Shown here: positions 8,132 to 58,407 of the stretch, piece by piece
How positions within the stretch are numbered: position 1 is the first letter of the stretch
Layout of the letters: each line of letters starts with the position of its first letter
Source of the DNA: Emiliania huxleyi CCMP1516
Taxonomy: Eukaryota
Reading direction: 5' to 3'
Length of the DNA stretch: 64,000 nucleotides
Assembly: GCF_000372725.1 (NCBI RefSeq)
Contig: NW_005201231.1
Span: forward strand, 296,246 to 360,245
The notes under the pieces: model-generated
Database searches by the model: none
Told to the model about the DNA's origin: nothing
What the model saw: only the letters and a program-made list of their open reading frames with translations
Translations under genes and position numbers: made by a program

Positions 8132-8770
8132 AACGTAGATGCCGGGGGGTTCGCGGGCCTGCCGACCCCGGTCGGGCCCGAAGGTGCGCGTGCAGCTGCA
8201 GGGGGCGCTGCAGCTGCAGGTGCAGCGAGGTGATCTTGTCTTAGTTTCCACGAGACGCAGACGCAGGATACGGTGATACGGTGTTATAGCTTATAGTTCA
8301 ATAAAATTCTTTTCTTTGTTAGTTGTTTCTATCACCCGCACGTATCAAAAGAATAGACAAGAGTAGTACTTGTGGGACGGCCCTTCGCATCTCGCGTCTT
8401 CGCCCCCCCCCCGCGCGCGCGCGCGCCACATGGACATATCGCGGCTGTACACATACCCTCCCCAGACAAACATGAAAGCACCAGAGTGCAGAGACCCCTT
8501 CGGCTTCGCGGCGCCGCACGCAACCCGTTCTCCCCCGTGGCGTCGTCCCCACCCACCCTCGGCGTGGCGCATCGTGCACCACAACAGCGCCAGACACCGG
8601 TCTCTGCTTGCAGCGCGTGCGGCTCTGCTCGCGGCCGCGCTCTCTAGACCAGAGCCGGCAATCGCGCCCGTCGCCCCCCCCCTCCCCCCCGCCCTCCCCG
8701 GTCCCCCGGTTCTCCTCAGCACGCCACGCCCTGCGCCGCCAGCCCCTGCGTGCTCTCCGAGGCCGACCTA

Positions 8771-12716
<3,946 letters not shown>

Positions 12717-13070
12717 CGCTGGCCGTTTGCTTTGAGAGAGAGAGCCGGGCAGAGAAAAGAATTTTTAGAATGGCTCCAAGTTACGAGCACTCCAAGTGCT
12801 CCAAGTGCTCCGAGCACCGCTGAAATGAGAATCTTACCACAAAACTCCCTCGCACAACACTGGGCACGGGACTGGCGCGCACTGGCACTAAATGAGAAAA
12901 CGGCGGTCTGGAGAAGGAGGTGAGGGCGACGAACGGGGCACACGCGCCAGGCGTGGTGAGGATTGTCCGAGAGGAGAAAAACAAACGCATCGCGGCACAG
13001 TGAGATCTCGGTGTGTCAGTCGTGTGCCAGCAGTCGTGTGCCAGCGCTCGCGTGGGAGCCCCTCTCTCAC

Positions 13071-22612: not shown

Positions 22613-22645
22613 GCACGAGGTGTGCGGCAAAGGAGGCGGGATACG

Positions 22646-25077
22646 ATGGCGACTCGCGTCAAGTGCGCTCAATTGAGCATGGCTGACATGGCTGACGACG
22701 ATGGCGGCTGCCACGCATGCACCTTCTTCATGCTGGACGCTGCTTTTGTGCGCACATTCCCGGGCAAGAGCCTGCCGTTCTTCCAGGAGATTCGCGACGA
22801 CTACGCCACCGAAGAGCCGCTCGTCGAAGAGGCGCTCGACTACGCTGACGTGGTGAAGGGCACCCACATTGAGACGACCTTGGCGGTCTCGCACCGCTGG
22901 ATGCAGCCGGACGACCCGGACCCCGACGGCGAGCAGCTCAAGGCGCTCAAGGGCTTCCTCAACTCGCCCAACGGCAAGAAGATTGAGCGCGTCTGGATTG
23001 ACTCGGCTTGCATGCCACAGGACCACCCCAAGGGCTCCCGCAGCGCGGAGGACGCGGCCGCCTTCAAGAGGATGCTCAAGGAGGTGAACCGGCTTTACCT
23101 CGGCACCACCGTCCTGATCCTCCTCGACCTGTCGTACGTCTCCCGCTTCTGGACTCAGTTTGAGTCGTGGCTGTCCATGCAGTACGCCACCCCCTCCGGC
23201 CTGAAGTCGGCGGTGGGCACCAAGAACGAGCGGCACCACATTGTTTGCATCCAGAACGCGGCCGAGCAATCCGAGCTGCACGAGAAGATGCTCATCCAGA
23301 GCTGGGCGACGAAGACGCCGGAGCAGGCGCACGCCTTCCTCTCCAAGCCCGACGTCACCGTGACCAACCAGGGCGACAAGGACGGGCGCTGCCGAAAATC
23401 AAGGCGCTCGACAAGACCGTGCAGGGCGCGTTTGGGGACATCTCGCGGTCGCTAGAGGATGAACTTGCGGCGAGCGAGGCGGCGGCTGCGCTCGCGGAGG
23501 CGGAGCTGACCGCGTGGGAGACGGAGAACGATGCCAAGGCCGGCGAGAAGAACCGGCTGAAGGTGGCGGCGCGGCAGGCGGCGAGCGCGGTGGCGGCGGC
23601 GCGCTTGGCGAAGGAGGAGCACGCGCGGGCGATCTCGAGTAGTGTCGTCCCGGCAATGATGAAGCGGGCAGAGGCAGCGTTGGCAGAGGACAGCCTGAGC
23701 ATGTCCGACGTGCGGGAGCTGGTGCTGCAGCTGAGCGGCGGAGGGGACAAGCGGAAGGAGCGGGCCGCGGCGGCGCTGGCGAACCTCGCAGGAGCCAACG
23801 ATGACAACGTTTCGAACCAGCACAAGGCCGACGTCCAAGCGGCGATTGCGGCCGCAGGCGGCATCGCGCCTCTCGTAGCGCTGGCTCGCGGCGGCACAGA
23901 CGGGCAGATGGAGGCGGCCGCGTCGGCGCTGAGGACCCTCGCTCGCAACGCCGACAACAGGGTGGCGATCGCGAGGGCGGGCGGCATCGCGCCGCTGGTG
24001 GCGCTGGCTCGCGGCGGCACGGACGGGCAGAAGCATTGGGCCGCGGGGGCGCTGCGGAACCTCGCTCTCAACGCCGACAACCAGGTGGCGATCGCGAGGG
24101 CGGGTGGCATCGCGCCGCTGGTGGCGCTGGCTCGCGGCGGCACGGACGGGCAGAAGGAGAAGGCCGCGGCGACGCTGGCGAACCTCGCAGGAGCCAACGA
24201 TGACAACGTTTTATTTCGGACCACAACGCCGACATCCAAACGGCGATTGCGGCCGCAGGCGGCATCGCGCCTCTCGTAGCGCTGGCTCGCGGCGGCACAG
24301 ACGGGCAGATGGAGGCGGCCGCGTGGGCGCTGAGGACCCTCGCTCTCAACGCCGACAACCAGGTGGCGATCGCGAGGGCGGGCGGCATCGCGCCGCTGGT
24401 GGCGCTGGCTCACGGCGGCACGGACGGGCAGAAGGAGAAGGCCGCGGGGGCGCTGCGGACCCTCGCTCTCAACGCCGACAACCAGGTGGCGATCGCGAGG
24501 GCGGGTGGCATCGCGCCGCTGGTGGCGCTGGCTCGCGGCGGCACGGACGGGCAGAAGGAGAAGGCCGCGGCGACGCTGGCGAACCTCGCAGGAGCCAACG
24601 ATGACAACGTTATTTCGGACCACAACGCCGACATCCAAACGGCGATTGCGGCCGCAGGCGGCATCGCGCCTCTCGTAGCGCTGGCTCGCGGCGGCACAGA
24701 CGGGCAGATGGAGGCGGCCGCGTGGGCGCTGAGGACCCTCGCTCGCAACGCCGACAACAGGGCGGCGATCGCGAGGGCGGGCGGCATCGCGCCGCTGGTG
24801 GCGCTGGCTCGCGGCGGCACAGACGGGCAGAAGCATTGCTTGGGCCGCGGGGGCGCTGCGGAACCTCGCTCTCAACGCCGACAACCAGGTGGCGATCGCG
24901 AGGGCGGGTGGCATCGCGCCGCTGGTGGCGCTGGCTCGCGGCGGCACGGACGGGCAGAAGGAGAAGGCCGCGGGGGCGCTGCGGAACCTCTCCTGCAACA
25001 AAACGAACCTCGCGGCTATGAAGGACCTGGGGTACGGCAAGAAAAAGTCGTCCTTCGGAGGCTGCTTGATGATGTAG
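22646..25077 (+). pseudogene. HET (TIR-like) domain + coiled coil + ~10 armadillo repeats + C-terminal CaaX; three frameshifts (pseudogene or sequencing errors)
   Basis: LAVSHRWMQPDDPDPDGEQL...VWIDSACMPQ...VNRLYLGTTVLILLD...YVSRFWTQFE; ARM units IAPLVALARGGTDGQKEKAAGALRNLA; ends KKKSSFGGCLMM*. Frameshifts at ~23387 (-1 nt), ~24210 (+2 T versus the sister repeat at ~24608) and ~24838 (+4 nt versus ~24035). Confidence 0.8.
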
Positions 25078-26244
25078 GTGAGGAGGTGCTAGCTGGTGTG
25101 GTCTCGGTAGGTCTGTAGAGAACTCTGAATTACCTCTTACCAGATACCACTGGTCATATTGACACCGCCCGTATTTTGGTCGGAAGGGATCTATACATAT
25201 TCATATACAGGGGATCTGCGACTGCGTGCGCACGCCCCCGGGTCTCCTCACCCACACGGGTCCCTCCTCACCCTGGAGGTCGGAGCGAGGCGGGGGTGCA
25301 TATATGGAAGCCTTTCACGAGTAACACGACGCATCTTTCTCCAGTCAATAGACACCCGTGCGATCCGATCGACAGGAGGTTGGAAACTGCAGAGAGCCAC
25401 GACGCACGAGAGAGGGGAGAGATAGCCAAATACGTAAATAAAACGGTCAAACTCTGAGACGAGATGGGATTTAGGGACATGTGTCCCAGTTGTCTCTGCT
25501 TCTCTGCTTTTTTTTCAGATGGGAGGACGGGGAAGAGTCGAGTGGGAAGAGTCAAGTGTGCGTCTGAAGACGGAGAGAGAGCGCCGCGCGGGTCGGAGCG
25601 ACAGGGGGCGCGGGTTCATACATGTACATGGAAGCCTTCCACGAGTAACACAAACGCGCTCGCATCCCACGCAAACAAAACAACGCAGCCTCTACCGCTC
25701 GCGGTCACAGGACCGCCTCCACCTCGAGCAGCGATGATGCTCTGCACACGCATACTAGATCGATAGAGAGGCGCTCACAGTCAACGATTGGGACACCGGG
25801 GTACTCTATGGGAGACACACGTATATGCAGCGCGGAACCGCGGTGACCGGTGTACGACTGCAAAAAGAAGTATAAGTAAAAAGCGGAGTGTTTACCTCTC
25901 GAGAGAAATGCGACGGTGTATCAGTCGCCTTTTACTGGGCTGGGTTTTTAGGCATTGTGGGGTTGGCACTCCCATCGACCCTCATGACCTCCTGCGGTCT
26001 CTGAGATGGACACCAGTGGGTGCGGCGACCTCGACCGACTATGGAGGACCCGTCGCCAGACGACGCAGGGCAGACGATGTGGAGGCGGAGCCGCCCGCTG
26101 CCAAGGTGAGCTCTCTCCCGCAAGCTGAGCCGGCGCTGCCAGAGGTGCGACGGGCCAATGCTGCTCCGGAGGGCCGCACGACGGCGCTCTGGCACCCCGC
26201 GGCGCTCTGGCACCTTGCGGCACCCCGCGGCTAGCAGCGCGGCC

Positions 26245-29200
26245 CTAGCACCCCTTTCCGCCGGCGATCTCGAGGCAGGCCGTCTGCGGGAAGATTGGCA
26301 GCACGGCGAGGGTCGTGCCTGTTCACAGACGACCGTGTGAAGAGACCTCACGTCCACGTTCACAGGACCGGGACGGAGCGCCGTGCCGAAGATGACGAGG
26401 AAGGCGAGCAGCGCAAGCATCGCCCAGCCGGCGGCGCGGCTGCGGGGCAGCTCCGCGAGCCGGCGCACCTCCTCCTTTTGGCTCGGCATCAGGGGCAGGA
26501 AGAGGAGCGAGAGGCAAGCGGTGGCGGTGGCGAGCAGCGTGAGCCACGCCATGTTCCACTGCACCTCCTCGCACGACGCGCCTGGCGAGAGATGAGCAGA
26601 GATGAGCCGAGATGGATCGAGGGGCGTCACTGCGCACACATCGTCGTGCGGCCGCACCGGCCTCCGACGCGCTTAGCCGTGCGCGTCCAAGGGCGCACGC
26701 CTTCAGCGTAGCGACAACAAGAACAATGATGATGATGATGCTAGTTCATAATCGTACTCGTGACAGCAATACCAACAACCGCAACCAAAGCAATGGCACA
26801 AATGGTGATGGCCATAACAAGAGAATGGCGTGCGGCGGGCGCAAGCGCCTTGAGCTCGTCGTTGTTCGTGTTGGACGGCCTAAGAACAACGAGAGGCGTG
26901 ACCCCGGAAAGAAGAAAAACGCGGCCCCGCCGGCCGTGTCGGAGGGCCAGACGGCGAGGAGGAGGTTGTTGATGGCGTTGGCCACGTTCATCGCCTGGTT
27001 TCGTGGACGGGGCGACACACACACGTCTGGATTAGTTGCTCATCAACGCATTCAACACATCACTCCGCGCCTGGTTCGTGTACGTGGTGACGGCGCCGTA
27101 GATGACTCCCTCGAAGCCGGGCACCGTGATCTCGGGGATCACCTGATGATTAATTAAGACTGATTATAATTAAGACTGATTAATTAATCAATCGCCGTGA
27201 TCTCGGGGATCACCACGATGCCGATCGCAGACGTGAGCGCGTACGCGAGCGACATGTCCACCTGCGTCATGGGGAGATGTGGGGAGATGTGGGGAGATGT
27301 GGGGAGATGTGGGACGGGACATGCCCACCTGCGCTTGGGGAGAGATGGGGAGATGTGCCGAGAGATGGGGAGATATGCCGAGACGTGTCCACCTGCGTCA
27401 AGACGTGCCGGCGCCGTTCTTTCAGTCAATTCATTCGTGAGTTGACTCACTGTCCGCTGTGTGAAGACGTACCCACCACAGCTGTTCTTTCAACTGAGTC
27501 ATCAATTAATTAATTAATTAATCAATTGACTCTCCACCTGCGTGAAGACGTACCACCAGCCGTTCTTGAAGAGCGGGACGAAGATGGTGAGCAGGTAGAG
27601 CAGCGAGAAGAGCTGTGTGCCTACGTGTGGTGCTCGCAGGGCGGGATGAGGACTACAGGGCGGGATGGCTAGGGCGGGAGTACGGTGTGCAAGCAATCCA
27701 CACGTTGACGACATCTCCTCAGATCTCCCCACATCTCCCCATATCTCCCGCAAGCAACCCACACGTTGACGACATCAGGGCGGGATCACGGCACTGTGCA
27801 GGCAGTGTGTGCTCAGTGTATGCACGGGGTTGCGAGGGACACGACTGCAGTGAATGCGACTGACTACGGCCGAAGAGAAGGGGGCACACGTGCCCCCCTC
27901 AAGAGCCTCCACACGGGTGGAATACAAGGACCACACATCCCCCGCTTCTGCAGCTGCGCGCCGAGGATACCTCCGGCGTACGTCAGCCGCCAGCTCGCCT
28001 GCAGCAGATCACAGCCTCGTAGGGCGTGCGCATCCCTGCCGCCTCTCGCCCGCAAGGCTCTCCGGCGGGCGGCGCTCTCGGCCATTACGCGAGCAGGCTC
28101 CCCCTCGCCCACGCCCCCTCGCCACCGCACACAGCGCGTCCGCATGCGGGCGGGACTGGGCTGATGCTCGCGTCTCCCTGCATCTCTCCCCCTATCTCCC
28201 CCTATCTCCCCACATCTCCCCACATCTCCCCACATCTCCCCCTATCTCCCCATATCTCCCTGCCCGCACGCCCTCCCTGGCCCTCCCTCCCTGGCCCTCC
28301 CTCCCTGGCCCCCGGGCACGCGCTGGGGGGGGCTCCCTCCCTCCCTCCCTCCCTCCCTCCCTCCCTGCCCGCACGCCCCTGGGGGGGGTCCCCCCCCCCC
28401 CCCCCCCTCTGCTCTCCTGCAGCAGGTACCGCTTGAAGGCCCACATGCCGACCGCCATCATCAGGCTCTGGAAGCAGGCCGACAGGCCGAGCTGCAGCGG
28501 CTCGATGTGGAACCTATGGGGAGATGGGGGGAGATGGGGGGAGATATGCCGAGAGGCCGAGCTGCAGCGGCTCGATAGTGGAACCACTGAGCGTTTGCGT
28601 TGATCTGCGCCTAGTGTTGGAGACGGGCGGGAGCGTGATGCTGTGATGGTGATAATCATGAAACAATGGTAATCGTTAATATCATAAGACTCCTGGTTTG
28701 GGTGCTACTAGTAAAACAATAGTGAGAATGAGAGCGTAGTAATAACAACCACAACAGGAAGGAGAAGGATGCCTGGTTGGTGACGAGCGAGAGCGTGGTG
28801 ACGCTGACCAGCGCGACGATGAGCCTCCACACCGGCGCCTACCGCAGGAGGGGAGATGTGGGGAGAGATGGAGAGATATGGGCCTGCCGCAGGAGGCGAA
28901 GCAGCTGCTTGGGGAGATGTGGGGAGGTGTGGGGAGGTGTGGGGAGATGTGGGGAGACACGGGCCTGCTGCAGGAGGCGAAGCAGCTGCTTGGGGAGATG
29001 TGGGGAGATGTGGGGAGATGTGGGGAGACACGGGCCTGCTGCAGGAGGCGAAGCAGCTGCTTGCACCGCCTCCGGAAGCTGAGCTGCTTGCCGGGAGGCG
29101 CCTCGTGCAGGGAGCGGAGGGAGGCGCCCATCAGAACGGGAGATATGGGGAGATATGGGGAGATATGGGGAGATCGCCTCGTGCAGGGAGGGGAGGGAGG

Positions 29201-30690
29201 CGCCCATCAGAACGGGAGATGTGGGGAGATATGGGGAGATATGGGGAGATCGCCTCGTGCAGGGAGGGGAGGGAGGCGCCCATCAGAACGGGAGATGTGG
29301 GGAGATATGGGGAGATATGGGGAGATCGCCTCGTGCAGGAAGGGGAGGGAGGCGCCCATCAGGACGCCGACGAAGGCGACGATGATCCACATCAGCTGCT
29401 GTGTGGTCAGGCCCCAGCTGAACGAGCCGCCGCTGGGGGGGCCTGATTAATTAATTAAGACTGTTTAATTAATTAAGACTGATTAATTAAGGAGCCGCCG
29501 CTCGGGGGGCCGTTGTAGCAGAACGCGACGACTCCGTTCGCCAGAACGTTGACCGAGTGCCGGATCAGGTAGGCGGTGGAGATGAGCGAGCCTGCCGTGC
29601 CGAGGGCGCCAACATCAGGCCGGGAGGACGGGATCGTGCAGAGCATTCAGAGCACCGTGTGAATACGAGGGGCACGAATGCAGCGGAGTACAGCGGGATA
29701 CGGCCGAATAAGGTTGAGTACGTGTCCTCTCGAGCGCCGTTTGGAGTACAAGAAGACGTATTCCGCTTCTAGGCCAGCGAGCCTCGCGCCTCGGCCGCCT
29801 CTCTCGTCGAGAGGGCGACGAGCACCGCGTCGGCGGCGCAGTCGGCGAGGAGGTACGAGACGGTCATGCACAGGAAGATGGTCGAGGCGAGCGGCAGAGT
29901 GAGCGTCGGGAGGACGGCGAGCAGGAGGGCGCCGCCCCAGAGCATGCCCCAGCCGAGGACCATGTACGGCTTGCGGTGCAAGCCGCAGATCGGCACCTAG
30001 TTAATTCATTCATGAGTTCATTCTTGCGCCGCAAGCCGCAGATCGGCACCTAGTTAATTCATTCATCAGTTCATTCTTGCGCCGCAAGCCGCAGATCGGC
30101 ACCTAGACTCGGACGGCAGGCAAGGACCGGCGGTGCGCTTTCAGCCGCACGGACTGTTTGGCTCGAATCACGCGGCGACTCTCGTGCTGACCGCGTCGCT
30201 GAGCATGCCGTATTCATCGCTTCTGATCATGCCGTGTCCGCAGCACTAATAACTGGTGGAGATATACTGCACTGACCGCGTCGCTGAGCATGCCGTACGC
30301 AAGCTTGAAGCCCCACGGAAGGTTGACAAAGGTGGAGACCGTCGCGCACGTGTTTGGCTGGCCATGGACTACGTAGAGGCAGTACGGCAGCAGCGTCTGC
30401 GACAGAAGCCCATTGACCATGCCGACGCACGCATAGTGGCTGTAGATGGCAATCTGCGGCAGCGACCACATGTCGGGCGCAGCCTCGAGAATGGCGGGCT
30501 CCACATCTAGCAGGGGCACAGTCAGCGTCTCCTGTTTCGGCGGCCTGCCCGGCGGCGGAGGGCCTGGGTGGAGCGGCGGCTCGGGAGTCACGAGGAAGCG
30601 ATCGCGCGAGGCGTCGGGACTCTGCTGGTACGGAGCCAGCCTCTCGCCAAGCCTTGGCGAGCGGTGGTGCTTTGGGTTGAGCTGCAGCAT
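26245..30690 (-). CDS. BT1 folate-biopterin transporter-like MFS protein (many introns)
   Basis: LPWGFKLAYGMLSDAV|PICGLHRKPYMVLGW; LADCAADAVLVALSTREAAEARGSL; later TM exons; C-terminus LPIFPQTACLEIAGGKGC* (stop 26245-26247). Confidence 0.85.
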
Positions 30691-30796
30691 CGACGACGAG
30701 CCGCGGCGACGGGGATGAGCGAGCCGATGGCGCGGCGACGGCCAACGCCCGACAGTCGCGCCTCTGACAGTACCCCGCGTGCGGCTGTGTTTTTTT

Positions 30797-31571
30797 ATTT
30801 TGAGCTTAGCCTTCGATGTTATGAACTTTTATTTTGAGCTAAGCCTTCGGTGTTATGAAACAACGCAAGGCGGACATGGCATATCACTCTCGGCCCCACA
30901 GACATCCCGCACACCCGCCGCCCCCGCGCGCGCCCCACTCCGGCCGGGAGAGAGGGGAGTGACAGTTTGGGACGGCGACAGCCCGAGTATGTTGAGTCCT
31001 GGCTCAACAACGCAGGTTCAAGAGGGGGTGGTCCGGCTCACAAGTCCGGCTCACGCGCCTCGAGCTGACCATCTACCGCACTGAGCACTTCCGCCCCCTC
31101 GCTCCCAGCCCATCCACCCCGCCTCGGGCCGCGCCGCGCGATCTCGGGCAATCTCGCGCTATCTCGGGCGATCTCGGGGCCGCGCCGCGCTATCTCGGGC
31201 GATCTCGGAGCGTCGCTCGCGCGGCGTCACACCTGCTCAAAAAGGAAGGAGGTTGGAGGCAGGAGGTCACGCCCCATCCAGAGCGCCGTCGTCGCCGGGT
31301 TTTTGGCCCCCGGGTCGTCGCCCGACGGTTGCTGCGCGGGGCAGCAGACCATCGGACGGCGCGACGACGCCCCGTCCGGCACGCTCCCCCACCTCCACTC
31401 GGCTATTGCCGCACGAGCGCCCTCAGCGGCGGAATTTTTCCCTCGCGCTTCCTTGGGCCCCCGGCAACGCCGACGGACTTCCCGTCCCCCCACCTGCGCC
31501 GCAATCACCGCCGTGATTGTCGGCGCTGCGCCCCTTGGCGCCTGTGCATGTCCCGCGTGCCCGCCCGCCAA
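30797..31571 (+). mobile_element. Dispersed repeat family B (~780 bp), copy 1
   Basis: Colinear near-identical copy at 62252-63051; head TTTTGAGCTTAGCCTTCGATGTTATGAA (duplicated here); internal ATCTCGGGCG repeats. Confidence 0.9.
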
Positions 31572-32782
31572 CTTTTATTTTTGAGAGCGCTTGTTGTTAA
31601 TAATACAAGCCCAATGGTCCACGTAGAGTTTCTCGCACATCATCACGCACAACACAACATAACACAAGTTCTGATTCTTGCCCTATATACAAGGGGATCT
31701 AATGAAGCTGACTCGACTCCAGTGCTGGCCGAGGAGGCGGATGGTTTGGAGGAGCAAGAGAGAGAGAGGGAGTCGCGATTGGTACCCCCACTCGGTCTGA
31801 GCGCAAAGGCGCAGCGGATGGAGCAGGGTGGCTGGGCCACTGCGCCGTGGGGAGTCGGCGGGAGAGAGGTCCTCACAAACACAGAGGTCCTCACATCAGA
31901 CAGAGGTCCTCACAGACGAGGTCCTCAGTATGCTTTTGAGGACCCCTCTCTTGATGTGACACTGATGGCATGTGAGACAGAACCTTGTTTGTTGTCGTGC
32001 GAGTGAGGATCTCACTCAAAGTGCGCTCACCCTGGGAGCGTATGGTTTATCAATGAAGGGGGGAGCAGAAGCCAGCCGCAGCCCACGGCTTGGGAGGACC
32101 TCTTGCTGTGAGAGGGGCTTGTATGGTAGAACTCTTTCGTGAGGACCTGTTTCCATCGTGAGGACCTCTTTCTTGAGTGAGGAATGATCGCTCCGACGTG
32201 TCCAACTTAAGTAGGTAGAACCGAGCTACACCGCTCCGACGCGAGCTACACCCCTCCAAGACTGCTCTGGTGGCGCCAGGCTGTTGTTGGGTTCTCTGTG
32301 TACCGCTGGTCCATATGGTAAGGTAGGTAGGTAGTAAGGTGAAGAACAGCCAGGCTCGGACTGGACACCAACGCGGTATGGGTGGACGCTAGACAGATGA
32401 TGACGACACGCACGAGCGACACACAGACACAAACAGGCTCACAAGACACACAGCCAGCGGGCGGCTGGTGCTGCCACACACCCTGAGTCGGCGTACACAT
32501 AACTCAGGGCCACATCCTCCCTGTCGCCCCCATGGTAAGGTAGGTAGGTAGGTAGGTAGGTAGGTAAGATCCTTCTAGAAAAAGAATTTAAACAAAACAA
32601 CTCTCTCTCACAGCAGACAGGCTAGAAAAAGAAAACATCGCTCTTTCGCTCACGTCGCGGTCCAAGGCGTCGTGGAGGCGCTGCTGTGACCAATTGGCGC
32701 AAAAGCGTGTGGAGCCGTCTACGCGCAGCTGCCGTCACTCGCGAGCCATACCTTCGCCACACCCCACACCCCTCGCGTGGCC

Positions 32783-35700
32783 ATGCCGCCCAAGAGCGGC
32801 ACCGACCTGACGTCGCGCGGCGACGACGACGACCCCGACAAGTACAAGAGCACGCGCTACAACCAGGTCAACGCCGACGTCGAGGACATCTACCGGCAGT
32901 GGGACGAGCTGGTGAATGAGGAGCAGCTGCGCGAGTTGAGCCGGATCGTGCGCGACCTGGCGGCCGACCCACCGGCCGACGGCAAGGCCCTCGAGCACCA
33001 GCTCATGCTGCACCGCAAGCGGATGCGGCGCGCAGACACGTTCCGCAAGGCGCAGCTGCTGCACGCGTACCACTGCCTCGTCTCGCGCGGCGAGCTGGAG
33101 GCGAATCCGCACCTGCACTCGCTGCTGGTGAAGAAGTCGTCCAAGTCGCAGTCGGGCGTCCTCGTCATCACCGTCCTCACCTCGCCCTACCCAACCTTCA
33201 CTGAGCCCGAATCGGGAAAGAAGGCGACCAGCCACTCTCCGCGGACCAGACCACACTTCCTAGACACTCACTTCCGAGAGAGTCTCCCCAGACACGCCCC
33301 AGAACACCGCGGGTACATCGCAGACGCCAGAATCGTGCTATCCAGCGCTGGCTCGCCAGGTCAAGCAGCGCTCCTTTCTCGCGCTCGCCGCCCGGAAGCT
33401 TCCGCGACCCTTCCCTGACGCTTCTCGGAACACTCCTCCACGCCAGGTGAAGCAGCGCTTCTCGTGCGCGTGGAACTGCTACTACTGCCCGTCCGAGCCG
33501 GGGCAGCCAAAGTCGTACTTGCACGACGAGCCCGCCGTCAAGCGCGCCAATGAGAACGGCCCCGACCCTGTGTGATGCATCTCCACAGCTGCTGCTGCTC
33601 CGCGACAGACGCCCGTCTGTCTTCTTCTCTGCAGGCTTCGACCCCGTCATGCAGCTGACCGACCGCGCCGCCACTCTCGCCCAGAACGGCCACCCCGTCG
33701 ACAAGATCGAGCTAGTGGGCCGTGAACAGCGTCTCTTCACACCTCTAGCTGTGAATAGGCCACCCCGTCGACAAGATCGAGCTAGTGGGCCGTGAACAGC
33801 GTCTCTTCACACCTCTAGCTGTGAATAGGCCACCCCGTCGACAAGATCGAGCTCCTCGTGCTGGGCGGCACTTGGTCCTCCTACCCGCACGTCTACCAGG
33901 AGCGAGATATGGGGGAGATATGGGGGAGATATGGGCGGCACTTGGTCCTCCTACCCGCACGTCTACCAGGAGCGAGATATGGGGGAGATATGGGCGGCAC
34001 TTGGTCCTCCTACCCGCACGTCTACCAGGAGCGAGATATGGGGGAGATATGGGGGAGATATGGGCGGCACTTGGTCCTCCTACCCGCACGTCTACCAGGA
34101 GCGAGATATGGGGGAGATATGGGGGAGATATGGGCGGCACTTGGTCCTCCTACCCGCACGTCTACCAGGAGCGAGATATGGGGGAGATATGGGGGAGATA
34201 TAGGGAGATATGGGCGGCACTTGGTCCTCCTACCCGCACGTCTACCAGGAGCGAGATATGGGGGAGATATGGGGGAGATATAGGGAGATATGGGCGGCAC
34301 TTGGTCCTCCTACCCGCACGTGTACCAGTAGCGAGATATGGGGAGATATGGGGGAGATATAGGGAGATATGGGCGGCACTTGGTCGTCCTACCGCGCACG
34401 TGTACCAGGAGCGAGGTGCGCGACCGCTCACATCTCCCCATCTCTCCCCCATCCCTCCCCCACACCTCCCCGTACCAGGAGGAGTTTGTGCGCGACCTCT
34501 TCTACGCCGCTAACACCTTTTGGCAGCGCGAGAAGCGGCCTCGGCGCGGCCCTTGTCAAGGAGGAAGGAGTCCTGTCGGGCAGCACTGTTGACCGTACCA
34601 GTTGTCTCTGCCAGGAGGGGGCTGCTGGAGGAGCAGGCACTCAACGAGACCGCCGCCTGCAAGATCATCGGCCTCACGCTCGAGACGCGGCCGGACATGT
34701 CCACGACATGTCCACGACATGTCCGAGACACGACCCCATAGGCCTCACGCTCGAGACGAGGCCGGACATGTCCACGACATGTCCACGACATGTCCGAGAC
34801 ACGGCCCCATAGGCCTCACGCTCGAGACGCGGCCGGACATGTCCACGACATGTCCACGACATGTCCGAGACACGCCCCATAGGCCTCACGCTCGAGACGC
34901 GGCCGGACACGTCCACGACATGTCCACGACATGTCCGAGACACGCCCCATAGGCCTCACGCTCGAGACGAGGCCGGACATGTCCACGACATGTCCACGAC
35001 ATGTCCGAGACACGCCCCATAGGCCTCACGCTCGAGACGCGGCCGGACATGTCCACGACATGTCCACGACATGTCCGAGACACGCCCCATAGGCCTCACG
35101 CTCGAGACGCGGCCGGACATGTCCACGACATGTCCACGACATGTCCGAGACACGCCCCATAGGCCTCACGCTCGAGACGCGGCCGGACATGTCCACGACA
35201 TGTCCACGACATGTCCGAGACACGCCCCATAGGCCTCACGCTCGAGACGAGGCCGGACACCATCGACGCGGCGGAGCTGCTGCGCCTCCGCCGGCGCTGT
35301 CGCCTAGAAGCGTAGTACGTATGTCGACCGTCCTCCGCTGTAGTCACTGCACTCCCCCCCCTCGTACCCACGCGGTGCTCTGAATACATTACATTGCACA
35401 AGATCGTCTGTCCGCCCCCGGAGATTGGCGGCTCCTAGCACGTAGGTATGGGTGATCTCCCCCATATCTCCCCATATCTCCCTATATCTCCAGCACGTAG
35501 GTATGGGTGATCTCCCCCATATCTCCCCATATCTCCCCATATCTCCAGCACGTAGGTATGGGTGATCTCCCCCATATCTCCCCATATCTCCCCATATCTC
35601 CCCCATATCTCCAGCGCGTAGGTACGGGTGCACGCGCGTGCAGCTCGGAGTGCAGCACACCGACGACCACGTGCGCAAGCGGATCAACCCCATATCTCCC

Positions 35701-38559
35701 CATATCTCCCCATGTCTCCCCACATCTCCCCACATCTCCCCACATCTCCCCACATCTCCCCACATCTCCCCACATCTCCCCATATCTCCTCATATCTCCC
35801 CACATCTCCCCATATCTCCCCACATCTCCCCGGCCAGGTGCTCAAGCGGATCAACCGCGGCTGCACGACGGCAGACACGGTGACGGCCCTGAAGCGGCTC
35901 AAGGACGCCTGCTACAAGATCGACATCCACCTGATGCCAAACTTGCCCGGCGCGACCGCAGCGGTGGACCGCGCCATGTTCGAGCGCGTGCTGAGTGACC
36001 CGCAGCTGCAGGCCGACCAGTGGAAGGTCTACCCGACCCAGGCGTGGTGCCGTGGACCGTCATCAAGCGAGATCACGGGCGAGATTAGCCGAGACTGTGC
36101 CGACCCAGGTGGTGCCGTGGACCGTCATCAAGCGCTGGTTTGAGGCGGGCAGCTACGTGCCGTATGCGAGCGACCAGATGTTTGAGCTCCTCATGCAGGT
36201 CAATTTGTTACTACTATTATTATTATTATGAGTAATAATAATTCTGTTCGAGCTCCTCAAGTCGCCTTATTATCATTATTATTATCATTATTATCATCAT
36301 CATCATCATCATTATTATTATCATTATTATTATCATTATTGTTGTTGTTATTATTGTTATTGTTATTGTGTGTCCTCTTCAGGTCAAGTCGCGCGTGCAC
36401 CCTTGGATCCGGCGCCACCCGCCTGGTGCGGCGCGAGGCGGCGCTGCGCACGGCGTCTCTTCACACCTGCGGCTGTGCACAGGCTCAACCGCGTGGTTCG
36501 AGACATCCCAATGCAGTACGTGTCTGGCGGGTCCGCCGGCCTAGAAGCGGAAGCTTCGTACTCTTGTCTCTCCCCACCAGTGCTCGAGAGGACACGGATT
36601 CAGCCGTGCCCGTACCGCACTCCGCTGTACTCGCTGTTTTCGTGGCCCCTCGTCCTCACGCGGTGCTCTGAAGACGCTGCACAGCGCCGTAGTCGTTGGC
36701 TCGACGCCCCCCCCTATCTCCGCCCTATCTCCCCCTATCTCCGCCATATCTCCCCCATATCTCCCCCATATCTCCCCCATATCTCCCCCGTATCTCCCCC
36801 GTATCTCCCCCATATCTCCCCATATCTCCCCCATATCTCCCCCGTATCTCCCCCGTATCTCCCCCATATCTCCCCCATATCTCCCCCATATCTCCCCACG
36901 GAGGCTCGACGTCCCGAACTTGCGCGAGGACTTGCTCGCAGAGATGAGGGACAAGGGGCTCACTTGCCGCTGCATCCGATGCCGCGAGCCAGGCGCCGCC
37001 TCGAAGAAGCGGCTGCCACCGCGGCCGCCCCCCGCCCGAGGTGACCCGAGATTGCGCGAGATCAGGCGCCGCCTCGAAGAAGGTGCTGCCAAGGCAGACG
37101 CTCGTGCGGCGCGTCTACGCGGCGTCGGGCGGCGCGGAGCACTTCGTCTCCATCGAGTCCGCCGACCGCGCCACCCTCCTCGGCTTCGTGCGGCTGCGGC
37201 TGCCGCCGCCCTGGAGCGACGCGCCGGAGCACCAGCCGCCGTTCGAGGAGCTGCGCGGAGCAGCGCTGGTGCGCGAGAATTGCACGTGCGCGGGCGGGCT
37301 CTCGCGGGCTCTCGCCGGGACGTGTCTCGGACATGTCCTCGTTAGGTGCGGGAGCTGCACGTGTACGGGCAGCTCATCGCCACCGCCGACAAGAGCAACG
37401 CCGACGCGCAGCACACCGGCCTCGGTCGCACGCTCATGGCCGAGGCGGAGGCGACCGCGCGCGCACACGGCTTCCGGCGAGTCTGGCCCAGATGCGGAGG
37501 GTAGACCCACATCTCCCCGTATCTCCCCACATCACCCCATATCTCCCCATATCACGAGGCCCAGATGCGGAGGGTAGACCCACATCTCCCCGTATCTCCC
37601 CACATCTCCCCATATCTCCCCATATCACGAGGCCCAGATGCGGAGGGTAGACCCACATCTCCCCGTATCTCCCCACATCTCCCCATATCTCCCCATATCA
37701 CGAGGCCCAGATGCGGAGGGACAGACCCACATCTCCCCGTATCTCCCCACATCTCCTCATATCTCCCCATATCACGAGGCCCAGACACACCCGTGCGTGC
37801 CGAATTAGCACTCGAGGAGAGGCGTGACGAGGCGGATGCTCTCACTGCAAACCGAGCTTTCCCGTGTGCGCGTGCGGTGCTCTCCCTGCCGCGCCCTGAC
37901 GCCGGTGTCTCGCCTTCCGGCAGGCGCGTCGCCGTGATCGCGGGAGTGGGGTCGCGCGGCTACTACCGCAGGCTCGGCTACGCCCTCGACCCGCGCCCGG
38001 GGCTCTTCATGATGAAGGAGAGTAGCAGTAGTAGGCACTTCATGATGAACGGAGAGTAGCAGCAGTAGTAGGCACTTTATGATGAAACGAGAGTAGCAGC
38101 AGTAGTAGGCACTTCATGATGAACGGAGAGTAGCAGTAGTAGGCAGCCTTCACTCCAAGATCGGACCCCCTCTCCACGCCCAAGTGACTGGCGACACGAG
38201 ACGTGGCTCAAAGCCACACGGAACTCACGCTCACTGGTGAGAGAAGTGAAAGCGCGCAGAGACAGAGCGGGGAGCGGAAAGGAGAGAGCGCCGCTCGCCG
38301 CGCAGTCGCCACGGCGCTCTGTTCGCCCCTCGCCTTCACCGCGCTCGGAGCCTCGCCTCTGTAGGAGCTCGCCTTCCTTGCGCCCGGCTGGAGACAGGCG
38401 CTCCTCCCGGCGGCACGCTGCGCGCTGATCGCGCTGCTCCCGCCCCTGCTGCTGCTGCTGCTGGCGTGGGTCAGCGCGCTCGGATGCCCCGACGAGGCGG
38501 CCGCGGGGCACCCGCATAGCCTCCGCTCGCTCGCGCGCTGCGCCTCCGCCTTGGTGTAG
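32783..38559 (+). CDS. ELP3: ELP3-like radical SAM / GNAT acetyltransferase (multi-exon) with probable C-terminal transmembrane exon
   Basis: KSQSGVLVITVLTSP; FSCAWNCYYCP (CxxxCxxC); DKIELLVLGGTW; IGLTLETRPD; YGCTRVQLGVQ; IHLMPNLPG; ADQWKVYP; RLNRVVRDIP; CRCIRCRE; RELHVYG; QHTGLGRTL; VIAGVGSRGYYRRLGY. Putative last exon 38365-38559. It may be the stand-alone protist-type paralogue rather than the Elongator subunit. Confidence 0.9.
33862..34412 (+). repeat. Tandem array (8 copies) of the ELP3 exon segment GGTWSSYPHVYQE alternating with GAGATATGGGG filler
   Basis: GGCGGCACTTGGTC counted 8 times with 60-80 nt spacing. Confidence 0.9.
34670..35258 (+). repeat. 70-bp tandem array (9 copies) of the ELP3 exon segment GLTLETRPD plus GACATGTCCAC filler
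   Basis: GGCCTCACGCTCGAGACG repeats with a ~70 nt period. Confidence 0.9.
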
Positions 38560-44985: not shown

Positions 44986-45730
44986 CAGCACCGGCAGACG
45001 AGCCGCCGCCTCCCAGCACCTTCGAGCCGGTACCTGAGCCCCTCGGCGGCGTGAAGCGCTACGCGACCAACTCCGCCGAGTACAGGAAGGCCTTCTGGGA
45101 GGTCTTCCACTCCGTCCCCAAGGCGCGCGCCATGTCCGTGGACGGCGTCAGCTACGAGGAGCTCGAGTTCCTGCACTACTCGGGCCCGGACGTGAGGGAG
45201 ATCCTGTTCGACATCGTGGCCGCCATCAACCAGGGCAGGGTGCACGACAGCGCCGCCGCGCTCTGGGGCGACCTCCAGCTGCTCGGGATCGAGAAGCGAG
45301 ACGACATGGGCAACGTCACCGGCACCCGCCCCATCGGCATCCCTGCAGCCATCCGCCGCCTCGCCAACCGGGTCCTCATGAAACACCGCAGCTCTGACAT
45401 GTGCGACCTGTTTACCGGCCGCACCGCCGACTCGCGCCGCCTCATTGTCGACGACATGCGCGAAATCTGCCGCCGCCCGCTCGCGGAAGGCGGCCTGGGC
45501 ATGTCGGAGGAGGAGGCGGAGGCGCGCGTCAAGGACTGCAACATCCCTCTGCAGGTTGGCGTGGGCCTCGCAGGCGGCGCCGAGGTCGCCGTGCAGCTTC
45601 TGTCAGAGCACCTGCGGCGCAACCCGGGCCACGCCGTCGCCTCGGACGACAAGAAGAACGGCTTCAACTCCATCTCACGAGAGGCCATCTTTGCTGGCCT
45701 GCGTCGCTGGTACCCCGAGCTCATCCCACA
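44986..45730 (+). mobile_element. Truncated reverse-transcriptase fragment of a CRE-like non-LTR retrotransposon
   Basis: SVDGVSYEEL; EK...TRPIGIPAAIRRLANR; PLQVGVGLAGGAE; SDDKKNGFNSISREAI...PELIP. Breaks before the YxDD motif, next to a short (CA)n run. Confidence 0.8.
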
Positions 45731-45894
45731 CTGGGAACCACACACACACACATGCGCCGAGCGCCGGAACTGGTTGCCCCCCACCCGTCGAACACGGCCG
45801 TGTTCGACGCGTGTTCGACGCTCTGCCCCCGTGTTCGACGGGGGTGCTGGACGGCGCGGGGGGCTTGCCCTCCGCGCCGTCCGAGGTTGCGGGG

Positions 45895-56118: not shown

Positions 56119-57715
56119 ATGGACGGCCTCGACGCCCTCTTGGCCGAGGCTGCGGCCGAGCGTGAGGTCAAGCGCTCGCCTCCGCCGCCGGTTGCCGCCG
56201 CCGCACCGAGAGTGGCACCAGTCGCACCGCCGCCAGCTTCCCACCAGCCTTCGAGTGAGGCTGCGTCGGAGCTGCACGCAGCACTGAAGGGGTACATCGC
56301 GCACCTGCTCTGCCCGGACGCGCTAGACGCGCTGTCGCTAGCTCTCGCGAGTCGCACGTACGCCGAGGTGGAGGAGTATATCGTCGCTCGGCCAGAGCTC
56401 TCTCGGTACACCCTCAGCGCAGAGGTTGGGCGGATGTCCTATACGGTCTTCCCTTCCGGCGGCGGGTCGCCCGTCACCGAGCCAGGGGCGATCCGCGCGT
56501 ATTACGCCCGCCAGTCCGGAGACGCAGGACGCGACGGCGGCGGCGGCGGCGGCGGCGGCGTGGCCGCGTCTTCTTGCGGCGTGGCCGAGCTGCTGTGGCG
56601 CGCCGCCAACCAGAGCCTCTTCGGCGAGGTGCTCGGCAGCCTGCAGGAGGCGTGGCTTGAGCCGCGGCTGAGCACGTGCGTCGTCGCCACCGCCTCCTCG
56701 CTCAGGCTCGGCGTCATAACAATCGATCAGTGAATGGATTCATTGAACGTCACCGTCACCGCCTCCTCGCTCGTTGATTCTGAAGGAGCCGCCGCCTCCT
56801 CGCGCAGGCTCGACTTCAGGGACGAGACGCAGCCGCGGCTCGACGCCTCGTGCGAGCTGGCCCCGCAGAGACGCGCTCGGACGGAGCATCCACAGCTGCC
56901 CCGCTTCTTGAGAGTCGTCTTTATCTGTGTCGCAGGCCGTGCAGACGCTCGGCGCATCTGACGAGCCGCTCGTCCTCGCGACTATTAATTTACTTTTAAT
57001 TCACGATTAATTAACTATTAATTAGGCGCATCTGACGAGCCGCTTGTCCTCGCGACCACTTCCTAGACACTTCCGAGACACTTCCGAGACACTTCCGAGA
57101 CACTTCCTAGGCGCATCTGACGAGCCGCTTGTCCTCGCGACCACTCAGGCGGCCACTTGGCCACTTCCGAGACACTTCCGAGACGCCTCCTAGATCCCCG
57201 AGACACTTCCGAGACACCTCCTAGACACTTCCGAGACACTTCGGAGAGACTCGCCTCCGAGATGCCTCCTGACGCCTCCCAAGGCGCTGCTGTCCAGGCC
57301 ATGCTGTCTACGCCAGCCTCCCCATTGCTGTCCGCCTCCCATTGCTGTCCGCCTCCCATTGCCGCCTAGGTCAGCGTCTCGCTGTCGCCCGCGCGGCGCG
57401 AGCTGCGGCGAGCTCGAGCTCCACCCAGCGATTACTAATCAACTTGTGATGACCTTTTAATGAGCTATTCATTAGGCGAGCTTGAGCTCCACCCAGCGGC
57501 CGCCGCAATGGCTGCGAACGGCGTCTCTTCACACGCCGCCGGTGTGAACAGGCAAGCGGTGGACAAGCCGCGGCTGGCGACGTACCGCGCGCACGGCGAG
57601 CGGCCTCGACGAGATTGCCCGAGATTAGTCGAGATTTCCCGAGCTCAGGTGCTGCATCTTCGACGAGCGAATCCTCGAGACGGCAGAGGCGATGGCGCGG
57701 TGGGAGGCCGCTTCG

Positions 57716-57763
<48 letters not shown>

Positions 57764-58179
57764 AGCGGGGAGGGTGGAGGGGCGCTGGGCGGTCTTGCTG
57801 CCGGGATCGGTCGTCTGATGCGGCCGGGTCGAGGAGAGGGAGAGGGCGGCGACGGTAGCGGCGGTGGCGGCGGCGGCGGCGGCGGCTGTGGCGGCGGCGG
57901 CGCTGGAGGCGGCGGCGACGGTGCGGGAGGTAGCGGCGGAATTCGCCTCTTGAGCTCCCTCAGCGCGATCGGTGGCAGCGTCGCTTCCGCCGCTTCGGGC
58001 CTCGCGCAGGAGTCGGCCAATCTCGGCCAATTCGGCTGATCTCGCCCGATCTCGGCCAAATCTCTGTTGACTCGGCCTCGGGCGCGCGCGTGCAGGAGTC
58101 GGTCTCGGGGCTGACGGCACTCGCGTCCGACGTTGGCACGGCCGCGGGGATCGGCCAGGCCACGCCGCAGAACGAGTGA
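56119..58179 (+). CDS. Multi-exon hypothetical protein
   Basis: 204-aa first ORF MDGLDALLAEAAAERE...; downstream exon pieces are separated by duplication-type introns (GGCGCATCTGACGAGCCGCTYGTCCTCGCGAC x3); last exon ...GIGQATPQNE*. Confidence 0.6.
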
Positions 58180-58407
58180 TGCGCCGAATTTCGATACTTG
58201 CACAATGCTACGGGCGTGGTATTCACAATGCTATGTGAACGCTCCTGTCCTTGCAGCTTGGTTGCACGTACATAGGAGGCGTGTAGTAATAACTGGTATG
58301 GCCTTCTAGTTTGGTCTTCTCGTGTTTTACTGCCTCGGCTGTCGGCAGCCGCCAGCATCTGAGTGTTCTCCACCGTCGCTCTGTTTCCATTCGCACATTA
58401 CCACGTC

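What the first reader, a model, noticed from the sequence alone, without database searches (positions are those of the whole stretch)
32783..38364. Introns built from duplicated exon sequence plus a simple-repeat filler: a candidate ongoing intron-generating mechanism
Seen: many introns begin with a 20-40-nt copy of the next exon's start and/or end with a copy of the previous exon's end, with a 10-11-bp-period filler between. ELP3 36042-36108 reads CCGACCCAG|GC-GTGGTGCCGTGGACCGTCATCAAGCG-filler-CCGACCCAG|GTGGTGCCGTGGACCGTCATCAAGCG. In 33559-33634 the intron start is a decayed copy of the next exon. In 34671-35232 the GC donor is the exon's own G|GCCTCACG and the AG comes from the filler end (CCCCATAG). 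The same design occurs in NUF2 (12020-12086 minus: GTGCCACGAGGACAAGCTGCC + (TTTCCTGGACC)n + TAG), WrbA, BT1 and the gene at 56119. Known: frequent GC donors and 10-11-bp intronic repeats are reported for E. huxleyi. Inference: insertions with long target-site duplications (break repair or TPRT-like) create splice-ready introns, which could explain the excess of GC donors. Copies range from perfect to decayed, suggesting continuing activity.
Basis: partly seen in the sequence, partly recalled or inferred. Interest (0 to 1): 0.85.

Follow-up and report, generated by a model that had tools for sequence, protein, structure and literature searches.

The report
Alga builds introns from copied exons
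In the bloom-forming alga Emiliania huxleyi, most introns examined carry copies of the neighbouring coding sequence next to repetitive filler DNA, are missing from related algae and in one case from wild members of the species, so they were likely made by an ongoing duplicate-and-fill mutation that would explain this alga's odd GC splice sites.

Summary
Confirmed and extended. The window is Emiliania huxleyi. ELP3 has 16 introns (13 joints seen in RNA contigs; 10 GC, 4 GT, 2 GA donors). Among 51 introns mapped in four genes, 31 carry a copy of the flanking exon, the donor equals the first two bases of the next exon in 39 (permuted mean 23.7) and the next exon starts with G in 50. ELP3 orthologues from about seven other algal lineages lack these introns (119 of 120 site calls; the exception is a different intron). 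Intron 3 is precisely absent in a conspecific metagenome contig and very likely in a second sample; DNA runs show the duplications are not assembly errors. Two other lineages have their own introns of the same design, one with telomere-like filler. Best reading: intron gain by 12-40 nt duplication plus filler, about 70 nt per event, probably end-joining of staggered breaks with filler copied from other introns; the donor is inherited from the exon. Corrections: fillers include dispersed cassettes, and many copies are secondary events at existing splice sites. Enzyme unknown. A variant of the tandem-duplication, break-repair and introner models; not found described in ten literature searches.

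The parts
32783..38559 (+). ELP3-type radical SAM / GNAT gene, 17 exons, 663 aa after splicing
   Evidence: P0002 colinear, 663 aa; Pfam Radical_SAM, Radical_SAM_C, Acetyltransf_1 on P0002
33224..33446 (+). Intron 1, GC-AG; internal copy of acceptor plus exon start (secondary duplication); length polymorphic
33559..33634 (+). Intron 2, GC-AG in the window, GT-AG in L039 and 4 of 4 DNA runs; borderline decayed copy of next exon
33689..33828 (+). Intron 3, GC-AG: two 70-nt units of 25-nt exon copy + dispersed acceptor cassette; precisely absent in L039 and probably in run X3
33900..34478 (+). Intron 4, GA-AG: 70-nt core (34409-34478) starting with a decayed copy of the next exon, plus 8 secondary copies of the previous exon end with GGGGAGATAT filler
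   Evidence: one secondary unit in L039
34544..34614 (+). Intron 5, GC-AG, 71 nt, no significant copy
34671..35232 (+). Intron 6, GC-AG: 8 units of 27-nt exon copy + 11-mer filler ending in AG
   Evidence: 16-nt copy in L039
35294..35621 (+). Intron 7, GC-AG: dispersed 150-170 nt cassette plus three secondary duplications across the acceptor with ATATCTCCCC filler
35671..35837 (+). Intron 8, GT-AG: 19-nt exon copy (18 of 19) + 10-mer array
36042..36108 (+). Intron 9, GC-AG: GC + 26-nt copy of next exon + filler + 9-nt copy of previous exon end
36199..36382 (+). Intron 10, GT-AG, AT-rich microsatellite filler, weak internal copy (below control)
36412..36482 (+). Intron 11, GC-AG, 71 nt, borderline decayed copy, ends in the acceptor cassette
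36531..36903 (+). Intron 12, GT-AG: dispersed long cassette + 11-mer array
36993..37065 (+). Intron 13, GC-AG, 73 nt: duplicated CAG|GC segment gives both donor and acceptor, filler between
37269..37345 (+). Intron 14, GT-AG, 77 nt, decayed copy of next exon
37477..37923 (+). Intron 15, GC-AG, internal 73-nt tandem units with 10-mer filler
38018..38364 (+). Intron 16, GA-AG, secondary copies of the previous exon end (33-37 nt units)
8700..12716 (-). NUF2 gene, 13 introns, 10 with exon copies (e.g. 12086-12020, 11832-11617, 9217-9084); intron 1 (12444-12198, GT-AG followed by CC) is the only one of 51 whose next exon does not start with G
26200..30690 (-). BT1-family transporter gene, 16 introns, 10 with exon copies
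56119..58180 (+). Gene of no Pfam family, 6 introns mapped, 2 with significant exon copies (56706-56807, 56952-57110)
33722..33760 (+). Dispersed 35-45 nt acceptor cassette (core TCTCTTCACAC ... TGTGAACAG); also at 33792, 36453, 57521 (+) and 9100, 9167, 26335 (-), always sense to the host gene; hundreds-fold depth in DNA runs
35300..35440 (+). Dispersed 150-170 nt cassette; also at 36535-36700 (+), 18470-18640 (+), 29775-29600 (-), 4 of 4 sense to the host gene

Best explanation
These introns carry copies of their flanking exons and are absent from related algae, and they were likely gained when repair of a staggered DNA break duplicated 12-40 bases of coding sequence and inserted filler between the two copies, the filler probably being copied from other introns. 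Shown: the exon-copy/filler/exon anatomy, splicing of the ELP3 introns, lineage-specific positions, one presence/absence polymorphism, shared fillers between genes. Inferred: (1) both ends of a staggered break are filled in, giving a direct repeat of variable length; (2) 20-60 nt of low-complexity or cassette DNA is added before joining, primed by short homology; (3) an event in an exon survives only if the copy starts with a usable donor (G followed by C, T or rarely A, taken from the exon itself), an AG is supplied by the filler or by the duplicated segment, and the insert reaches about 67 nt; (4) the same process then keeps hitting existing introns and splice sites, and unequal crossing-over multiplies the roughly 70-nt units, giving long introns; (5) fillers that make good acceptor tracts become the commonest templates, so a few families spread without a transposase. 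I put intron gain by duplication plus filler at about 0.85 and this particular molecular route at about 0.55.
For: Copies at the intron 5' end in 18 of 51 introns, at either end in 24, anywhere in 31; donor equals next-exon start in 39 of 51, next exon starts with G in 50 of 51; shortest intron 67 nt, 19 of 51 are 65-80 nt. Both ELP3 GA donors are followed by an exon starting GA, and the 70-nt core of intron 4 is a decayed copy of its next exon. Outgroups intron-free at 119 of 120 site calls in 10 loci, controls correct; the sister clade (99 SH-aLRT, quick tree) includes genomic L008 with its own different introns. Intron 3 absent in L039 with introns 1, 2, 4, 5, 6 present; run X3 shares L039's haplotype and its contig leaves the window exactly at the spliced joint with 64 letters left, which equals the distance to the next 31-mer repeat. 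Independent introns of the same design in L011 (22-nt duplication, GC-AG) and L015 (12-nt duplication, GT-AG). Variable duplication length, at least six unrelated filler types, both orientations of the commonest 10-mer (10 versus 4 introns) fit repair better than one element. Junction microhomology of 2 nt or more in 4 of 20 junctions versus 3.9% in controls (p 0.02). End-joining of staggered breaks is shown to make tandem duplications in mouse cells (PMC5730883, passages).
Against: 20 of 51 introns show no detectable copy. The outgroup test covers one gene only, and the outgroup genes are intron-poor, so wholesale loss there is not formally excluded. The intron-3 polymorphism cannot be polarised: a 26-nt direct repeat can also collapse precisely. 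Several copies are secondary (introns 1, 4, 7, 16), so a copy inside an intron is not itself proof of origin. The microhomology test is small, hand-picked (11 of 17 events kept, then 10) and weak. The two cassettes are always sense to the gene and high-copy, as mobile introners would be, and five introner families were already listed for this species. 48 of 53 10/11-mer arrays and all 81 copies of the commonest 10-mer lie inside six spliced genes that make up 31% of the window, which random break repair alone does not predict. Intron 9 has two extra bases before the copy and its 3' copy is less exact in run X2.
Confidence: 0.55

Rival explanations
1. The fillers are several non-autonomous mobile elements (introner-like, or the tails of non-LTR retroelements inserted by target-primed reverse transcription) that make unusually long, variable target-site duplications; the donor is co-opted from the duplication and the acceptor is carried by the element.
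For: Two dispersed cassettes, sense-oriented in every gene seen, one ending in the acceptor AG and reaching hundreds-fold depth with 19-22 unrelated flanks per run. Known introners can take the donor from the TSD (PMC9860276, passages), and that study lists 653 elements in 5 families for this species.
Against: Duplications of 12-38 nt versus 3-9 bp in known introners; at least six unrelated and often composite fillers with ragged ends; no significant hairpin in the short cassette; most fillers are simple repeats in both orientations; no autonomous partner found (an RT-like fragment at 45033-45734 had no Pfam hit).
Confidence: 0.2
2. A telomerase-like, reiterative reverse transcriptase adds the filler de novo to the 3' end of a staggered break before joining; telomerase itself would do this in lineages with (CCCTAA)-like introns and variant templates would give the 10-11-mers here.
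For: L015's ELP3 intron is a 12-nt duplication around a telomere-like tract, with the G-rich strand continuing from a GG end; L011 has another telomere-like intron; pervasive interstitial TTAGGG is reported in the coccolithophore Calcidiscus (PMC13518057, passages). The commonest filler here has a G-run strand and variable run length.
Against: Fillers in this window are not telomere repeats and come in many families; dispersed non-periodic cassettes cannot be made by reiteration; L011's telomere-like intron shows no exon copy. No genome was available to look for TERT or template RNAs.
Confidence: 0.12
3. The introns were gained in this lineage by some other route, and all exon copies are later duplications or slippage at existing splice sites.
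For: Secondary duplications across existing donors and acceptors are plain in ELP3 introns 1, 4, 7, 16, at 18920 and at 57023; 20 of 51 introns have no copy.
Against: Short introns such as 3, 13, NUF2-2, BT1-3, -7, -11 consist of nothing but copy + filler, with no trace of an older intron; the donor itself is the copy; intron 3 differs from the intron-less allele by exactly copy + filler; GA donors match GA exon starts.
Confidence: 0.1
4. The introns are ancient and were lost in the other lineages, or the duplications are assembly artefacts.
For: The window has N gaps and low-quality stretches; copy numbers of the long arrays (introns 4, 6) could not be checked; orthologues are intron-poor.
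Against: Introns 9 and 13 are bridged in 4 of 4 DNA runs, intron 14 in 3 of 4; RNA removes them; loss would have to be complete and parallel in about seven lineages, three of which carry introns elsewhere in the gene.
Confidence: 0.03

Closest known systems
Intron gain by tandem genomic duplication of a protosplice-site segment (Rogers model; reviewed in PMC3443670)
   Same: Duplicated exon sequence supplies the donor, sometimes also the acceptor (intron 13 CAG|GC, L011, L015); splicing restores the coding sequence exactly.
   Different: Duplication is too short to be an intron alone and is padded by foreign filler; often the AG comes from the filler; donor is GC or GA as often as the exon dictates; seen in most introns of a gene rather than as rare events.
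[quoted passage not shown]
   Same: New introns flanked by direct repeats, read as repair of staggered breaks; presence/absence polymorphism.
   Different: Repeats here are 12-38 nt rather than short; filler is shared among genes and repetitive rather than organellar or unique; the repeat itself is the splice donor.
Introners (PMC9860276), including five families listed for E. huxleyi CCMP1516
   Same: Families of similar intron sequence at unrelated sites; donor co-opted from the duplication and acceptor carried; lengths of 37-70 nt resemble the cassette and the unit size here.
   Different: Known TSDs are 3-9 bp and family-specific; the E. huxleyi families were scored TSD '?' or 'N'; here only the filler is shared, ends are ragged, and most events use simple repeats. 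Whether the cassettes are those families was not checked (sequences not seen).
GC-AG dominance in E. huxleyi (PMC4028052)
   Same: 56-65% GC donors and about 4% GA donors; here 33 GC, 15 GT, 3 GA of 51.
   Different: That paper suggests high genomic GC as the cause; here the donor type is predicted intron by intron by the start of the next exon.
Interstitial telomeric insertions at repaired breaks (recalled, no call)
   Same: Telomere-like tract between direct repeats in L015.
   Different: Here the product is a spliced intron; fillers in this window are not telomeric.

Membership tests
Tandem genomic duplication (Rogers model) | Duplicated exon segment provides the donor | tested here: met
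   18 of 51 significant 5' copies; donor equals next-exon start in 39 of 51
Tandem genomic duplication (Rogers model) | The same duplicated AG|GY gives the acceptor too | tested here: inconclusive
   Met in ELP3 intron 13, L011, L015; not met in introns 3, 6, NUF2-2, NUF2-11, where the AG is in the filler
Tandem genomic duplication (Rogers model) | Intron consists only of duplicated sequence | tested here: not met
   Filler of about 40-85 nt in the single-unit events
Intron gain by double-strand break repair | Novel introns flanked by direct repeats above background | tested here: met
   Against 2,550 non-own pairings; no set of conserved introns was available as a second control
Intron gain by double-strand break repair | Position absent in outgroups or polymorphic | tested here: met
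Intron gain by double-strand break repair | Repair signatures at junctions (microhomology, templated filler) | tested here: inconclusive
   4 of 20 junctions with 2 nt or more versus 3.9%
Intron gain by double-strand break repair | Dependence on end-joining enzymes | not testable with these tools
   needs genetics
Introners | Similar intron sequence at many unrelated sites | tested here: met
   Two cassettes; only part of the intron is shared
Introners | Short family-specific TSD (3-9 bp) or none | tested here: not met
   Duplications 12-38 nt, variable
Introners | Terminal inverted repeats or fixed ends | tested here: not met
   Ragged 5' ends; folding no better than shuffles in 5 of 5 copies
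Introners | Autonomous transposase partner | not testable with these tools
   No genome held
Non-LTR retroelement insertion (TPRT) | Variable-length TSD with one common 3' tail | tested here: not met
   Variable duplication yes; at least six unrelated fillers, no common tail
Telomerase-added interstitial repeats | Filler equals the telomere repeat | tested here: not met
   Not in the window; telomere-like only in L015 and L011

The most novel reading that the evidence does not exclude
Haptophyte algae run a transposon-free intron factory: breaks targeted to transcribed genes are healed with a long target duplication and a filler written by a telomerase-like or template-switching polymerase, and this single process has made most of the introns of E. 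huxleyi, rewired its splice code to GC/GA donors, and works independently in other lineages with telomere-like filler.
Probability: 0.25. Interest if true: 0.92.

Novelty: new variant of a known kind. Interest (0 to 1): 0.8.

Why it matters
Where new introns come from is a long-standing question, and outside introner-bearing genomes most gained introns have no traceable source. Here the source is legible in the majority of introns of ordinary genes, at every stage from polymorphic to decayed, in a species with many sequenced strains, so rate, insertion spectrum and selection can be measured directly. It also gives a testable, intron-by-intron explanation of the species' GC-AG majority and GA donors, and explains why its gene models are error-prone (an intron that begins with a copy of the next exon reads as coding sequence).

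Tried and rejected
No whole genome was held, so no genome-wide count. The cassette pattern found nothing in viral or prokaryote collections. Rfam gave only sub-threshold miRNA matches on repeats: no RNA family behind the fillers. A hairpin in the short cassette was considered and dropped. Two versions of the outgroup site test failed their positive control, calling L039's real introns absent because exon copies translate like exons; only the flank-placement test, which passes on the window (16 of 16) and L039 (5 of 5 sites called), is used. The first microhomology count was inflated by two tandem arrays and was redone. The careful tree did not finish; the quick tree is used only to place L007/L008 as sister and L003/L006/L010 with Chrysochromulina. 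The 78 viral ELP3 loci were not used. A spliced alignment proposed GC 'introns' in L001 and L003 near aa 502-509; these are probably in-frame protein insertions and were ignored. An RT-like fragment at 45033-45734 had no Pfam hit and cannot be tied to the fillers. Micro-exon alternatives to the two GA donors were considered and rejected because the expressed protein follows the first copy. Earlier scan findings: nothing on this genome.


Full report
Identity and gene model. No whole genome was held. NUF2 exon 1 is 100% identical to a protein named for Emiliania huxleyi CCMP1516, which fixes the species. RNA contigs from 4 runs (3 studies) laid on 25500-38500 show 13 ELP3 joints among the 15 rows displayed (51 more rows were not shown); 12 are in all four runs and one in three. 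Three more introns (33900-34478, 34671-35232, 36199-36382) follow from contig length arithmetic and an open frame. The spliced frame is 663 aa and colinear with an independent 663-aa database protein, P0002, which carries Radical_SAM, Radical_SAM_C and GNAT domains. ELP3 thus has 16 introns: 10 GC-AG, 4 GT-AG, 2 GA-AG.

Further introns. Spliced alignment gave 13 introns in NUF2 (from P0069, itself a gene model, not independent RNA), 16 in BT1 (1-8 from near-identical P0062, 9-16 from distant homologues that disagree on introns 14-15) and 6 in the gene at 56119 (a weak seventh was dropped). Total 51 introns: 33 GC, 15 GT, 3 GA, close to published proportions (PMC4028052, passages and section 21).

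Is it more than chance? With the splice dinucleotides left out, the intron start matches its own next exon above the 99th percentile of 2,550 other pairings in 18 of 51 (17 above the background maximum), the intron end matches the previous exon in 9 of 51, either end in 24, and any copy including internal ones in 31; 20 have none. The donor equals the first two bases of the next exon in 39 of 51 (permutation mean 23.7, maximum 35 in 10,000). The next exon starts with G in 50 of 51; the exception is NUF2 intron 1. No intron is shorter than 67 nt and 19 are 65-80 nt. Duplicated segments are 12-38 nt once array-inflated cases are set aside, and copy + filler units are mostly 55-95 nt. Both ELP3 GA donors precede exons starting GA, and the 70-nt core of intron 4 begins with a decayed copy of its next exon.

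Artefact? DNA contigs of four runs bridge intron 9 (4 of 4), intron 13 (4 of 4) and intron 14 (3 of 4) and carry their own SNPs. Copy numbers of the long arrays in introns 4 and 6 cannot be checked with such contigs; L039 has one secondary unit in intron 4, which may be collapse. In run X2 two extra bases make the 3' copy of intron 9 less exact.

Gain or ancient? A metagenome scan returned 80 ELP3 loci of 172 confirmed. I tested 10 loci from about seven eukaryote lineages closest to the window. With a flank-placement test that is correct on the window (16 of 16) and on conspecific L039 (5 of 5 called), 119 of 120 site calls are intron-free. The one exception, L008 site 8, is caused by L008's own intron nine codons upstream; the site itself is contiguous. 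A quick tree puts L007/L008 with a Tisochrysis-labelled protein as sister to the window (99) and L003/L006/L010 with Chrysochromulina tobinii. L008, L011 and L015 are genomic, since they hold introns of their own. Limits: one gene, intron-poor outgroups, two earlier tests discarded for failing controls.

Ongoing? L039 differs from the window by five substitutions in about 1.2 kb up to intron 6, keeps introns 1, 2, 4, 5 and 6, and lacks intron 3 exactly, with a single copy of the duplicated 26-mer. Run X3 shares L039's substitutions and a 13-nt deletion; its contig leaves the window at 33687, the same place as the RNA joint, with 64 letters left, which is the distance from 33828 to the first repeated 31-mer. 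That joint was not displayed, so this second case is inferred. X1, X2 and X7 carry intron 3 with different copy/filler junctions. Direction is unresolved within the species, because direct repeats can also collapse. Intron 2 has GT in L039 and all four DNA runs but GC in the window.

Fillers. They include several 10-11-mer families, AT-rich tracts and two dispersed cassettes. A 35-45 nt cassette ending in the acceptor occurs in ELP3, NUF2, BT1 and the gene at 56119, always sense (9 matches, two of them probably chance, 0.55 expected); its bin has several hundred times single-copy depth and 19-22 contigs per run enter it from unrelated flanks. It does not fold better than shuffles. A 150-170 nt cassette occurs 4 times, always sense. 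Neither matches Rfam above threshold. 48 of 53 10/11-mer arrays, and all 81 copies of the commonest 10-mer, lie in six spliced genes covering 19.9 of 64 kb; that 10-mer is C-rich on the sense strand in 10 introns and G-rich in 4. Microhomology of 2 nt or more at copy/filler junctions: 4 of 20 versus 3.9% (p 0.02; 10 hand-picked events). The process also hits existing splice sites (introns 1, 4, 7, 16; 18920; 57023), so some copies are secondary.

Beyond this species. L011 (ELP3 about 70% identical) has its own 104-nt GC-AG intron at aa 73: CAG|GC duplication of 22 nt around a repetitive filler ending TGAACAG. L015 (53-57% identical, placement uncertain) has a 95-nt GT-AG intron near the C-terminus: 12-nt duplication around a telomere-like tract. 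Other outgroup introns (L008, L016, L018, and two more in L011) show no copy.

Mechanism. The anatomy demands an insertion with a long, variable target duplication. I favour end-joining of staggered breaks with templated filler (0.55), over mobile elements with long TSDs (0.2), a telomerase-like writer (0.12), purely secondary copies (0.1) and ancient or artefact (0.03). Survival rules are inferred: donor from the exon copy, AG from filler or copy, about 67 nt minimum. The concentration in spliced genes is unexplained and may mean targeting.

Literature. Ten full-text searches gave no paper describing exon copies plus filler in haptophyte introns; the library lacks most subscription papers, including the 2013 genome paper, whose report of 10-11 bp intronic repeats I only recall. 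Seen: PMC3443670 parts 1-2 of 6 (tandem-duplication and break-repair models); PMC9860276 passages and spreadsheet rows (introner TSDs 3-9 bp; E. huxleyi listed with 653 elements in 5 families, TSD '?' or 'N'; file cut when stored, appendix and sequences not seen); PMC4028052 passages (GC donors ascribed to genome GC); passages of PMC5730883, PMC13518057, PMC11347835, PMC10290126, PMC2784329, PMC3488318 and bioRxiv 10.1101/2024.05.26.595999 (supplements closed). So repeated intron families and GC donors in this species are known; the long-duplication anatomy, its share of introns and its link to donor type were not found. The scan noted one pure tandem-duplication intron in another protist, unchecked.

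Verdict. Real, quantitatively strong, supported by outgroups and a polymorphism; a new variant combining three known intron-gain models, apparently at the scale of most introns of these genes. Interest 0.8.

Noticed in passing
L011 1316-1419 (+): Independent GC-AG intron in another haptophyte-like ELP3 with a 22-nt duplication and repetitive filler ending TGAACAG, like the window's cassette end.
   Followed up: yes
L015 6149-6243 (+); L011 56-200 (-): Introns filled with telomere-like (CCCTAA/CCCTGA/CCCGAA) tracts ending CCAG; L015's is flanked by a 12-nt duplication, L011's is not.
   Followed up: partly
window 33900 and 38018 (+), 28416 (-): Three GA-AG introns; the ELP3 ones are supported by RNA or by the expressed protein.
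   Followed up: yes
window 12444-12198 (-): NUF2 intron 1 is the only one of 51 whose next exon does not start with G and has no exon copy: a candidate ancestral intron.
   Followed up: no
window 30840-31570 and 62255-63030: Two copies of a dispersed repeat that itself holds a copy-filler-copy structure with a GATCTCGG-type 10-mer, outside the annotated genes.
   Followed up: no
window 45033-45734 (+): Fragment reading like a non-LTR reverse transcriptase (by eye), interrupted by other repeats; no Pfam hit.
   Followed up: partly
window 5264-8130 (+), 13050-14720 (-), 22630-25055 (+): Long intron-free genes (helicase with five HA domains; LRR-like; armadillo-repeat-like with frameshifts) without any filler insertion, in contrast to the intron-dense genes.
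   Followed up: partly
window 56936-56951, 28611-28584 region, 10279-10248 region: Micro-exons of 16-30 nt between neighbouring copy-bearing introns; ELP3 has 16 introns in 663 codons.
   Followed up: no
window 10821-11500: N gap followed by low-quality G/T-rich sequence that looks like a poor read of the NUF2 intron 4 tandem array.
   Followed up: no
L081-L158: This ELP3 type is common in giant-virus contigs (78 loci, 34-51% identity).
   Followed up: no
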